Shown: in pieces, positions 54,397 to 54,924 of the stretch
How the letters are laid out: each line of letters starts with the position of its first letter
Position numbering within the stretch: the stretch's first letter is position 1
Assembly: GCA_965226885.1 (NCBI GenBank)
Contig: CBDDEL010000016.1
Location: 192,001 to 256,000 of the forward strand
DNA length: 64,000 nucleotides
Source: Opitutales bacterium
GTDB lineage: Bacteria; Verrucomicrobiota; Verrucomicrobiia; Opitutales; UBA2987
Direction: 5' to 3'
The notes under the pieces: model-generated
What the model was told of the DNA's origin: nothing
The model's database searches: none
What the model saw: the letters and a program-made list of their open reading frames with translations, nothing else
Translations under genes and position numbers: made by a program

Positions 54397-54924
54397 TTGA
54401 GTGCTGCCAATTATAAAACTTCGGGAAAATCTAGGGAGAATCAATCGACCTCGATTTATCCCGACGTCATTCCCTGGGAAAAAGGCCACCCCACCACCTC
54501 TCATTTTGAGGTCATAGGCACCGAGGATCCGCGAGGCCGGGGTCTACGGGCCAAGGTGATCTTTCGGCAAGGTGAACTTGTTGCCCGGATTTCCGGAATA
54601 ATTGCCGATCGGACGACGTTGAATACCATGCAGGTTTCGACCGCGCTGCATTTCATGGACCCATGGTTCTGCCGGTTTCTCCTCCATAGCTGCGACCCGA
54701 ATATCACGATTGACATAGATTCGTTGGAAGCGAGGGCGGCAAGGGACATCCACCCCGGCGACTACCTCGCCTACGATTATGCCACCACCGAGGATTTCAT
54801 CGCGAGGCAATTCGTCTGTCATTGCGGCGCCCCGCATTGTCGGGGCTGGATTACGGGCCGACGCGAAATACCGAACGAGGAAGGGCGGGCTTTTCTTGCT
54901 CAAAACTTTGAAAACAGGTCTTGA
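54397..54924 (+). CDS. SET + post-SET domain methyltransferase (BurB-like)
   Basis: RGRGL.A, LLHSCDPN, ARDI.PGD.L.YDY, F.CHCGAPHCRG. Confidence 0.88.
   Translation: MSAANYKTSGKSRENQSTSIYPDVIPWEKGHPTTSHFEVIGTEDPRGRGLRAKVIFRQGELVARISGIIADRTTLNTMQVSTALHFMDPWFCRFLLHSCDPNITIDIDSLEARAARDIHPGDYLAYDYATTEDFIARQFVCHCGAPHCRGWITGRREIPNEEGRAFLAQNFENRS

What the first reader, a model, noticed from the sequence alone, without database searches (positions are those of the whole stretch)
54397..54924. SET protein looks like a BurB-type methionine S-methyltransferase, not a histone methyltransferase
Seen: LLHSCDPN replaces canonical NHSCxPN, with N-terminal SIYP...P...FE, T.Q...H..DP.F, DYATTED...RQF.CHCG..CR.WITG and C-terminal E.PN..G. 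Established: Burkholderia BurB is a SET-domain enzyme that methylates Met to S-methylmethionine en route to DMSP. From memory of that subfamily these motifs match, but I have not aligned them. Inference: this organism may make SMM or a DMSP-type sulfonium compound, which would be unexpected for this lineage. Alternative: a host-directed SET effector like Chlamydia NUE or Legionella RomA.
Basis: partly seen in the sequence, partly recalled or inferred. Interest (0 to 1): 0.72.

Follow-up and report, generated by a model that had tools for sequence, protein, structure and literature searches.

The report
BurB-type SET methionine S-methyltransferase homolog
This small gene encodes a close structural and sequence relative of BurB, the only SET-domain enzyme known to methylate free methionine, so the bacterium probably makes S-methylmethionine, but it lacks the next enzyme needed to go on to DMSP.

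Summary

Its best solved relative by far is BurB (9l4t, E 7.3e-44; next SET protein 1.5e-7). An AlphaFold model superposes on BurB-SMM-SAM at TM 0.87/0.94, against about 0.56 for histone methyltransferases.

In a tree it sits in a strongly supported BurB-like clade (99/96). That clade also holds natural fusions of this SET domain to BurI-type decarboxylases. The genome's second, canonical SET protein falls outside it.

So 'BurB-type, not a histone or effector methyltransferase' is supported.

'DMSP' is not. The 96%-complete genome has no group II decarboxylase, and its one Orn/DAP/Arg-type decarboxylase is a housekeeping LysA-like gene. The gene stands alone, with no bur neighbours.

Most likely it makes S-methylmethionine as an end product or for an SMM cycle. 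The substrate is inferred, and the window's subclade differs from BurB at four pocket-region positions.

The gene is rare and patchy: 2 of 401 genomes sampled in the phylum.

It is a new member of a known kind, of moderate interest.

The parts
54397..54924 (+). Gene for a 175-aa BurB-family SET-domain S-methyltransferase (TTG start, TGA stop)
   Evidence: ORF. Pfam SET. BurB 9l4t at E 7.3e-44. Model against 9l4v at TM 0.87/0.94. Clade placement.
54384..54389 (+). AAGGAG ribosome-binding site, 7 nt upstream of the TTG start
   Evidence: Read directly from the sequence. The closest homologue, P0001, is also 175 aa and aligns from residue 1, which supports this start.
54146..54396 (.). AT-rich intergenic region of 251 bp (GC 0.40) between the divergent TetR/RND efflux operon and the SET gene. 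It presumably holds the SET promoter.
   Evidence: GC values. No sigma-70 consensus match and no inverted repeat were found here, so the promoter is inferred and not located.

Best explanation
The ORF encodes a soluble, single-domain member of the BurB family of SET-domain enzymes, which methylate a free small molecule and not a protein lysine.

By analogy with BurB, the most likely mechanism is as follows:
- L-methionine binds deep in the pocket, mainly through main-chain hydrogen bonds.
- SAM then binds and a glycine/arginine-rich loop closes over it (window residues about 41-48, containing R46).
- The thioether sulfur attacks the SAM methyl group by proximity and desolvation, giving S-methylmethionine (SMM) and SAH.

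Homology, fold and clade membership are shown here. The substrate and the product are inferred.

The gene is monocistronic and is not linked to any decarboxylase, aminotransferase or dehydrogenase. The genome shows no BurI-type SMM decarboxylase. In this organism SMM is therefore more likely an end product (a solute or methyl/sulfur store) or part of an SMM cycle than an intermediate on the way to DMSP.

The gene was probably acquired horizontally. The organism is inferred to belong to the Opitutales.
For: (1) Sequence. BurB (9l4t_A) scores E 7.3e-44, 153 bits, aligned over query residues 15-168 against chain residues 10-164. The next best hit, KMT2A, scores 1.5e-7 and covers only residues 91-152.

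(2) Structure. The AlphaFold2 model has mean pLDDT 89.7 and pTM 0.81. In Foldseek its top three hits are the BurB crystal structures: 9l4v at TMq 0.87, TMt 0.94, rmsd 1.6 A, 161 columns, 45% identity. The best non-BurB SET hit has TMq 0.56.

(3) Residues (BurB numbering from PMC12542666, Results read; mapping).
- R42 -> R46, H93 -> H97, R133 -> R137 and H138 -> H142 are the SAM contacts, and all are kept.
- Y124 -> Y128 is kept; the Y124A mutant is almost inactive.
- T73 -> T77 is kept.
- H97 and Y128 are invariant in the 45-sequence family alignment.

(4) Phylogeny. The careful IQ-TREE run used 85 rows.
- A 74-row clade with support 99/96 holds the window protein and a BurB proxy, P0076. P0076 matches BurB at E 1.2e-56 over 130 residues.
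- The same clade holds all the fusion proteins.
- Canonical SET proteins fall outside it, including this genome's own second SET (C10, PF00856 at 80.6 bits).

(5) Rosetta-stone fusions inside that clade.
- Four of the 18 long hits scanned join this SET domain to an Orn/DAP/Arg-type PLP decarboxylase: P0080, P0102, P0112 and P0193, in either domain order.
- One joins it to an AdoMet decarboxylase domain (P0204).
- One sits at the end of a 4765-aa NRPS (P0114).
- BurI and SMMDC, the SMM decarboxylases, are DAP-decarboxylase-like according to a passage of PMC11464771.

(6) Context in relatives of the window's own subclade.
- L003 (an Acidobacteria MAG) has, on one strand, a group II decarboxylase, a cystathionine gamma-lyase (496.7 bits, cut-off 440), CysK (403.7 bits, cut-off 350.95), a DinB-like gene and then the SET gene.
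- L033 has a CysK-like PALP enzyme, a cupin and then the SET gene. L029 shows the same ORF layout (not scanned by Pfam).

(7) No downstream pathway in this genome.
- PF00282 gives 0 matches.
- PF02784 gives 1 match, which is LysA-like: TIGR01048 at 263.6 bits.
- That gene is kept at 61-89% identity in 5 of 5 relatives, three of which lack the SET gene.
- The fusion decarboxylase domains find only this locus, at 25-31% identity.

(8) Precedent. Stand-alone Met S-methyltransferases without DMSP genes are predicted to run an SMM cycle (PMC9135737, section 14, read).
Against: - No enzyme of the window's own subclade has been assayed. BurB is the only characterised member of the whole clade.

- Relationships inside the 74-row clade are unresolved, so BurB is not shown to be the sister of the window subclade.

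- The window subclade (18 rows) differs systematically from the other 27 BurB-like rows at positions around the substrates:
  - BurB H72, a SAM amino/carboxyl contact, is D/N/E in 18 of 18 window-subclade rows and H in 21 of 27 others.
  - R70 is T/S in 16 of 18.
  - S88 is C in 18 of 18.
  - M132 is A/G/T/S in 18 of 18, against mostly F/Y in the others.
  These changes could mean a different substrate.

- R137 and H142 are kept in the window protein but only in 7 and 6 of the 18 subclade rows.

- No bona fide SMM:homocysteine methyltransferase was found to close an SMM cycle. The only PF02574 proteins are a 1252-aa ORF (presumed MetH, not verified) and a 576-aa fusion that scores 57 bits against a cut-off of 215 for the MmuM-type model.

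- BurB itself has a Km for Met of 16.6 mM, so its in vivo specificity is not beyond question.

- Gene neighbours in the subclade are mostly unrelated to sulfur metabolism.
Confidence: 0.6

Rival explanations
1. It has the same BurB-like fold and chemistry but acts on a different small-molecule acceptor. Candidates include another thioether or selenoether amino acid, a methionine derivative, or another nucleophile. On this reading the window's subclade ('WFCRFLLHSCDPN') is a functionally distinct branch of the family.
For: - The subclade carries its own substitutions at BurB positions 70, 72, 88 and 132, which lie around the bound Met and SAM.
- The subclade is a well supported unit of its own (15 rows, 98/94), and its relation to BurB is unresolved.
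- It has no decarboxylase fusions of its own.
- A class I SAM methyltransferase of about 205-272 aa lies beside the SET gene in 6 of the 23 relatives' loci scanned by Pfam: L004, L006, L007, L011, L026 and L034.
Against: - In BurB, Met is held by main-chain atoms, 'irrespective of potential mutations' (PMC12542666), so side-chain changes need not alter specificity.
- S88A keeps more than 60% of activity.
- L003 and L033 place the subclade next to cysteine/methionine enzymes.
Confidence: 0.25
2. The organism does make DMSP by the methylation pathway. The SET enzyme performs step one, and non-orthologous or promiscuous enzymes carry out decarboxylation, transamination or oxidation, and dehydrogenation.
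For: - In B. thailandensis the aminotransferase and dehydrogenase steps can be taken over by housekeeping enzymes (PMC7496086, passages).
- In Spartina the SMM decarboxylase turned out to be an ornithine-decarboxylase-like enzyme and not the closest BurI homologue (PMC11464771), so the family assignment of this step is loose.
- The genome is 96.3% complete, not closed.
Against: - There is no PF00282 protein.
- The single PF02784 protein is LysA-like and is conserved in relatives that lack the SET gene.
- No pathway genes lie within 14 kb on either side.
- The decarboxylase step was indispensable in B. thailandensis: the burI deletion lost the product.
Confidence: 0.1
3. It is a protein lysine methyltransferase. 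Either it is a secreted host-directed effector like Chlamydia NUE or Legionella RomA, or it modifies a bacterial protein.
For: - It is a SET-domain protein.
- It keeps the catalytic-site Tyr and the Cys ligands of the post-SET-like CxCx4C motif. The role of these cysteines is recalled from general SET knowledge and was not tested.
Against: - Histone-type SET domains align only over residues 91-158, at E >= 1.5e-7.
- They superpose at TM about 0.5-0.58, against 0.87 for BurB.
- The protein sits inside the BurB-like clade, away from canonical SETs.
- The genome already has a canonical SET protein elsewhere.
- The canonical N of the NHSC motif is replaced by L.
- Homologues come from groundwater and other environmental MAGs of many phyla.
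- No RomA or NUE entry is among the 60 PDB sequence hits or the top 50 fold hits listed.
Confidence: 0.04

Closest known systems
BurB of Burkholderia thailandensis (SET-domain L-methionine S-methyltransferase; PDB 9l4t, 9l4v; PMC7496086, PMC12542666)
   Same: - Similar size: 175 against 172 aa, a single SET domain.
- Alignment over almost the full length, at about 45% identity in the structural alignment.
- Same fold: TM 0.87/0.94.
- The LHSCxPN motif, the DY(A)xTED motif, the CxCx4C motif and the C-terminal E.PN..G helix start are shared.
- SAM contacts R42, H93, R133 and H138, and Y124, are kept.

   Different: - It is not part of a bur-type cluster: no BurI, BurD or BurE, and no BurA assembly line nearby.
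- H72 -> N, R70 -> T, S88 -> C, M132 -> A, A44 -> R.
- It comes from a different phylum, inferred to be Opitutales.
- It belongs to a separate, well supported subclade.
- Its activity has not been tested.
MmtN / plant MMT (class I Met S-methyltransferases; PMC9135737)
   Same: - The predicted reaction is the same: Met + SAM -> SMM + SAH.
- As with Group II and III MmtN/MMT organisms, the gene stands without downstream DMSP genes. For those organisms an SMM cycle or an unknown role is predicted.
   Different: - The fold is unrelated: Rossmann-type class I against SET class V.
- PMC12542666 states that BurB and MmtN show no significant BLASTP similarity.
- I did not compare the window protein with MmtN myself.
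Canonical SET-domain lysine methyltransferases (KMT2A, ASH1L, NSD; bacterial effectors NUE, RomA)
   Same: The SET core, the SAM-binding HSCxPN motif, the Tyr of the DY motif and the post-SET-like cysteines.
   Different: - Only the C-terminal third aligns, at E 1e-7 and weaker.
- TM is about 0.5-0.58.
- The N of the NHSC motif is replaced by L.
- The N-terminal half is of the BurB type.
- The protein lies outside their clade.

Membership tests
BurB family (SET-domain small-molecule S-methyltransferases) | Full-length sequence similarity to BurB that clearly exceeds similarity to lysine-methylating SET proteins | tested here: met
   BurB at E 7.3e-44 over residues 15-168. The next hit is at 1.5e-7 and covers only residues 91-152.
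BurB family (SET-domain small-molecule S-methyltransferases) | The BurB fold, including the N-terminal half and the gating loop region | tested here: met
   pLDDT 89.7. Against 9l4v, TMq 0.87, TMt 0.94 and rmsd 1.6 A over 161 columns. Other SET proteins reach TMq <= 0.58.
BurB family (SET-domain small-molecule S-methyltransferases) | SAM-contact side chains R42, H72, H93, R133, H138 and the essential aromatic Y124 (PMC12542666) | tested here: inconclusive
   Five of the six are kept: R46, H97, R137, H142, Y128. H72 is N76 in the window protein. It is D/N/E in all 18 rows of its subclade, but H in 21 of 27 other BurB-like rows.
BurB family (SET-domain small-molecule S-methyltransferases) | Monophyly with BurB to the exclusion of canonical SET proteins | tested here: met
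   a 74-row clade with 99/96 support contains the window protein and the BurB proxy P0076. Canonical SETs and the genome's second SET fall outside. The branching order inside the clade is unresolved.
BurB family (SET-domain small-molecule S-methyltransferases) | Methylates free L-methionine to SMM with SAM | not testable with these tools
   This needs an enzyme assay. The indirect support is the fusions to BurI-type decarboxylases within the clade and the cysteine/methionine gene neighbours in L003 and L033.
bur-type / methylation-pathway DMSP synthesis (BurB-BurI-BurD-BurE) | A dedicated SMM decarboxylase (BurI/SMMDC, DAP-decarboxylase-like), indispensable in B. thailandensis | tested here: not met
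   PF02784 gives one match, which is LysA-like and conserved in SET-less relatives. PF00282 gives none. The fusion decarboxylase domains hit only that locus, at 25-31% identity. Genome completeness is 96.3%.
bur-type / methylation-pathway DMSP synthesis (BurB-BurI-BurD-BurE) | Clustering of the methyltransferase gene with the pathway genes or with an NRPS/PKS | tested here: not met
   The neighbours are a TetR regulator, an RND efflux operon, a small putative lipoprotein, DsbD, DUF4336 and MatE. The only aminotransferase (42603-43982) lies 10 kb away on the other strand, among unrelated genes.
bur-type / methylation-pathway DMSP synthesis (BurB-BurI-BurD-BurE) | A DMSP-amine aminotransferase and a DMSP-aldehyde dehydrogenase | not tested
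   These are generic families present in most genomes. In B. thailandensis they can be replaced by housekeeping enzymes, so their presence would not discriminate.
Host-directed SET effectors (NUE, RomA/LegAS4) | A canonical lysine-methyltransferase SET core (NHSC motif) with closest similarity to eukaryotic-type KMTs | tested here: not met
   The motif is LHSC in place of NHSC. KMTs are distant in sequence and in fold. The protein lies outside the canonical SET clades.
Host-directed SET effectors (NUE, RomA/LegAS4) | A secretion signal and a host-associated lifestyle | not tested
   No tool for type III/IV secretion signals was available. The homologues come from environmental MAGs.

The most novel reading that the evidence does not exclude
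BurB-like SET enzymes may not be a Burkholderia curiosity. They may form a broad family of free-amino-acid S-methyltransferases that has moved horizontally among uncultivated lineages. Record titles and source names of the homologues name Opitutales and other Verrucomicrobiota, Kiritimatiellota, Victivallaceae, Hydrogenedentota, Acidobacteria, Roseivirgaceae and Gammaproteobacteria MAGs.

On this reading, the window's 'WFCRFLLHSCDPN' subclade is a distinct branch with its own pocket residues. It would either make SMM as an end product, which would be an unrecognised bacterial source of a sulfonium compound, or methylate a new acceptor altogether.
Probability: 0.3. Interest if true: 0.65.

Novelty: new member of a known kind. 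Interest (0 to 1): 0.5.

Why it matters
[quoted passage not shown] Here a homologue about 45% identical to BurB, with the BurB fold, sits in a genome inferred to be Opitutales. Its subclade occurs in MAGs of at least six other lineages. The wider clade includes natural methyltransferase-decarboxylase fusions.

If these enzymes methylate methionine, two things follow:
- SMM production by bacteria is wider than assumed.
- Counting burB-like genes as DMSP markers would be wrong for genomes such as this one, which lack the decarboxylase.

My two searches for such a report found no paper in the held library that links burB to Verrucomicrobiota or Opitutales or that describes other bacterial SET-domain SMM synthases.

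Tried and rejected
- **Conserved operon partner.** I clustered 169 neighbour ORFs from the window and 13 genome loci and ran Pfam on 54 + 38 neighbours. No universal partner emerged. Apart from the SET gene itself, only an RND pump recurs, in 5 sources (W, L002, L008, L011, L014). W and L002 are syntenic relatives, so this is weak.

- **Orthologues of the relatives' neighbours in the own genome.** The class I methyltransferases, the 150-aa unknown protein and the L003 decarboxylase have no orthologue in the own genome. The only class I methyltransferase hit is a 30% local match, and the cysteine/methionine enzymes find only housekeeping paralogues.

- **NCBIfam on the SET protein:** 0 families.

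- **S. mobaraensis MSMT as a second characterised SET homologue.** I rejected this bracket. PMC7496086 and PMC12542666 call it a BurB counterpart (35%), but PMC9135737 treats the S. mobaraensis enzyme as an MmtN. I could not see the sequence.

- **Names for key representatives.** The cluster look-up of 10 proteins gave names for only two clusters: the NRPS of Brevibacillus laterosporus, and 'diaminopimelate decarboxylase' for a member of the P0193 cluster.

- **Compositional sign of recent transfer.** There is none: SET GC 0.542 and GC3 0.608 against window GC 0.528.

- **Promoter, operator and terminator.** One promoter-like site at 54921-54949, against 1.6 expected by chance. No + strand terminator. 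No inverted repeat in the upstream intergenic region.

- **Expression.** No RNA holder was listed for window 53400-55400.

- **Earlier findings of this scan, searched by sequence:** nothing.

- **Literature on the decarboxylase.** A search for 'S-methylmethionine decarboxylase' or 'Streptomyces mobaraensis' gave only transglutaminase papers.

- **Not done.** I did not run complex prediction or the protein-atlas search. I did not test for dsyB, mmtN or DMSP-lyase genes in the genome.

Full report
**Observation**

An AAGGAG site lies 7 nt upstream. All quoted motifs are present:
- SIYP...P...FE
- T.Q...H..DP.F
- LLHSCDPN, in place of NHSCxPN
- DYATTED...RQF.CHCG..CR.WITG
- E.PN..G

Pfam sees only a weak SET domain (34.7 bits, E 2.5e-8). 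NCBIfam sees nothing.

**What it is**

- A phmmer search of all PDB sequences puts BurB (9l4t/9l4v) first at E 7.3e-44. It is aligned over residues 15-168 of 175.
- The next hits are histone lysine methyltransferases at 1.5e-7 and weaker, and they align only over residues 91-158.
- An AlphaFold2 model built on 45 homologues is confident (pLDDT 89.7).
- Its three best Foldseek hits are the BurB crystal structures: 9l4v at TMq 0.87, TMt 0.94, rmsd 1.6 A, 45% identity. The best other SET protein reaches TMq 0.56.

I read the Introduction and Results of the BurB structure paper (PMC12542666). BurB is a 172-aa enzyme that converts Met and SAM to SMM and SAH. It does not accept MTHB or MMPA.
- It binds Met through the main chain of R70, T73, M132 and V130.
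- It binds SAM through R42, A44, H72, H93, R133 and H138.
- It loses activity in Y124A but not in Y124F or S88A.

The chain numbering equals the native numbering, because the eight extra residues are a C-terminal tag. With the alignment, the window protein compares as follows:
- Kept: R46, T77, H97, Y128, R137, H142.
- Changed: H72 -> N76, R70 -> T74, S88 -> C92, M132 -> A136, A44 -> R48.

**Family and phylogeny**

An exhaustive HMMER search of 1.84 billion representatives found 3014 hits at E <= 0.001, 385 at <= 1e-10 and 21 at <= 1e-30.

I could not hold the BurB sequence itself. I therefore used representative P0076, which matches BurB at E 1.2e-56 over 130 residues, as its proxy.

Two trees were built:
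- A quick tree of 138 domain sequences.
- A careful tree of 85 rows. These were rows I selected from the 138, plus the genome's second SET protein.

Both trees agree. In the careful tree:
- A 74-row clade with support 99/96 contains the window protein, the BurB proxy and all the fusion proteins.
- Canonical SET proteins fall outside, including a second, ordinary SET protein of this same genome (C10:66852-67166, PF00856 at 80.6 bits).
- The window protein belongs to a 15-row subclade (98/94), marked by the motif WFCRFLLHSCDPN.
- The order of subclades within the 74-row clade is not resolved, so BurB is a clade-mate and not a demonstrated sister.

**Independent functional hints**

Eighteen unusually long hits were scanned with Pfam.
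- Four are fusions of this SET domain to an Orn/DAP/Arg-type PLP decarboxylase, in both domain orders: P0080, P0102, P0193 and P0112.
- One is fused to an AdoMet-decarboxylase domain (P0204).
- One is the C-terminus of a 4765-aa NRPS, named as from Brevibacillus laterosporus (P0114).
- The known SMM decarboxylases BurI and SMMDC are DAP-decarboxylase-like (passage of PMC11464771).
- These fusions are therefore what one expects if the clade's SET domains make an amino-acid sulfonium that is then decarboxylated.

Within the window's own subclade:
- An Acidobacteria MAG (L003) has, on one strand, a group II decarboxylase, cystathionine gamma-lyase, CysK, a DinB-like gene and the SET gene.
- L033 has a CysK-like enzyme, a cupin and the SET gene. 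L029 shows the same ORF layout.

These observations are supportive but few. Most neighbourhoods are unrelated to sulfur metabolism, and no partner is universal.

**What the genome says about DMSP**

The window lies in a 5.48-Mb, 17-contig genome that is 96.3% complete. Around the gene lie:
- a divergent TetR regulator plus an RND efflux operon;
- a small putative lipoprotein;
- DsbD, DUF4336 and a MatE transporter.

None of these is a bur-type gene.

In the syntenic relative L002, a two-component system lies between the SET gene and the lipoprotein gene, and insertion sequences lie between TetR and the SET gene. The SET gene is therefore best seen as monocistronic.

The search for a decarboxylase gave the following:
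- The genome has no PF00282 decarboxylase.
- It has one PF02784 protein. That protein is LysA-like: TIGR01048 at 263.6 bits, just under the cut-off of 297.9.
- The same gene is present at 61-89% identity in 5 of 5 relatives tested, three of which lack the SET gene.
- The decarboxylase halves of the fusions find only this locus, at 25-31% identity.

In B. thailandensis the decarboxylase was indispensable, while the later steps were replaceable (PMC7496086, passages). DMSP synthesis by the known route is therefore not supported.

SMM as an end product, or an SMM cycle as predicted for stand-alone MmtN genes (PMC9135737, section 14), is the more economical reading. However, I found no clear MmuM-type homocysteine methyltransferase either.

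**Caveats on substrate**

The window subclade has its own residues at four BurB positions next to the substrates:
- position 72 is D/N/E in 18 of 18 rows, against H in 21 of 27 other BurB-like rows;
- position 88 is C in 18 of 18;
- position 132 is small (A/G/T/S) in 18 of 18, against mostly F/Y;
- position 70 is T/S in 16 of 18.

BurB holds Met by main-chain atoms, so these changes may be neutral. They also leave room for a different acceptor. I put methionine at about 0.6 and another small molecule at about 0.25.

**Distribution and origin**

The closest named relative is an Opitutales MAG, at 76% identity and syntenic (L002). A same-genus genome, G137, gives a nearly identical match (76% identity; E 2.8e-92 against 8e-92 for L002). 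I therefore infer that the organism is an Opitutales.

The gene is rare:
- Strong matches occur in 3 of 151 genomes sampled in the order, all in one genus. Two further genomes matched only weakly, at about 1e-12.
- At E <= 1e-25 it occurs in 2 of 401 genomes sampled in the phylum, counting the window's own genome.

Yet subclade members at 52-62% identity occur in MAGs labelled Acidobacteria, Kiritimatiellota, Victivallaceae, Hydrogenedentota, Verrucomicrobiota, Roseivirgaceae and Gammaproteobacteria.

Within the genus, G097 has the more similar LysA (89%, against 78% for G137). Its SET gene is nevertheless less similar (62% against 76%) and sits in another context.

This pattern points to horizontal transfer. 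Base composition shows no recent signature.

**Comparison with the literature**

- Passages in PMC9135737 and PMC13360808 describe burB as confined to Burkholderia or to a narrow range of taxa.
- PMC11306096 lists burB among robust indicator genes for DMSP synthesis.
- Searches for 'SET domain' with S-methylmethionine and bacteria and for burB with Verrucomicrobiota, Opitutales or metagenome found no report of such homologues in the held library.
- Supplements were not consulted.

**Verdict**

It is a new member of a known family, found in an unexpected lineage.

It is probably an SMM synthase that is not coupled to DMSP synthesis. Its substrate remains to be shown.

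Noticed in passing
L018:736-2466 (-) = G000 contig C16, about 91 kb upstream of the window: A 576-aa protein fuses a homocysteine S-methyltransferase domain (PF02574, 77 bits) to a class I SAM methyltransferase domain of the PrmA/HemK type. It is below the cut-offs of all named equivalogs. It is an odd methyl-transfer fusion in the same genome as the BurB-like gene.
   Followed up: partly
L039:1348-1905 (-) = G000 contig C10:66852-67166: This is a second, canonical SET-domain protein in the same genome: NHSCDPC motif, PF00856 at 80.6 bits. 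It falls outside the BurB-like clade on a very long branch.
   Followed up: partly
Proteins P0080, P0102, P0112, P0193, P0204, P0114: These are natural fusions of BurB-like SET domains. Four are fused to Orn/DAP/Arg-type decarboxylases, in both orders. One is fused to an AdoMet decarboxylase domain. One sits at the C-terminus of a 4765-aa NRPS of Brevibacillus laterosporus.
   Followed up: partly
L005:4711-14528, L007:3917-15092, L031:3148-14344, L041: In Victivallaceae-type loci the BurB-like gene sits inside a CO dehydrogenase/acetyl-CoA synthase cluster. It lies between two CooC-like ATPase genes and the CODH gene. A homocysteine-S-methyltransferase-domain gene lies 3 kb upstream on the same strand.
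   Followed up: partly
L004:1713-2327, L006:9015-9638, L007:9035-9655, L011:8768-9469, L026:1953-2570, L034:8130-8948: A class I SAM methyltransferase of 204-272 aa lies next to the BurB-like gene in 6 of the 23 relatives' loci scanned. These proteins belong to at least two unrelated subfamilies: L004/L011 are 48% identical and L006/L007 are 64% identical. None has an orthologue in the window's genome.
   Followed up: partly
L007:8586-9038 and L012:424-828: A protein of about 134-150 aa with no Pfam match lies directly downstream of the SET gene. It is 72% identical between a Victivallaceae MAG and a Gammaproteobacteria MAG, which suggests a two-gene cassette that moves between phyla.
   Followed up: no
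Proteins P0070 (1449 aa), P0071 (1479 aa), P0081, P0075: These are very long proteins with 4-7 tandem SET-like stretches, each about 30% identical to the window protein. They rank among the top hits of the representative search. P0070 shows only SET in Pfam.
   Followed up: no
window 39156-40244 (-) and 60919-61968 (-); L002:7659-9819: Insertion-sequence genes flank the region. In the window these are an rve-type integrase and a DDE_3 transposase. In the syntenic Opitutales relative, a resolvase fragment and an IS200-type transposase are inserted between the TetR gene and the SET gene.
   Followed up: no
Literature: PMC7496086 and PMC12542666 against PMC9135737: The papers disagree on the Streptomyces mobaraensis Met S-methyltransferase. 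Two call it a BurB homologue or counterpart (35%). The third treats it as an MmtN, a family said to have no similarity to BurB.
   Followed up: no
L010:2028-2444, L027:6357-6773, L028:6500-6916, L030:3151-3567: A 138-aa DUF6146 protein lies just upstream of the BurB-like gene in L027, L028 and L030, and about 1.6 kb downstream of it in L010, the Roseivirgaceae MAG locus.
   Followed up: no
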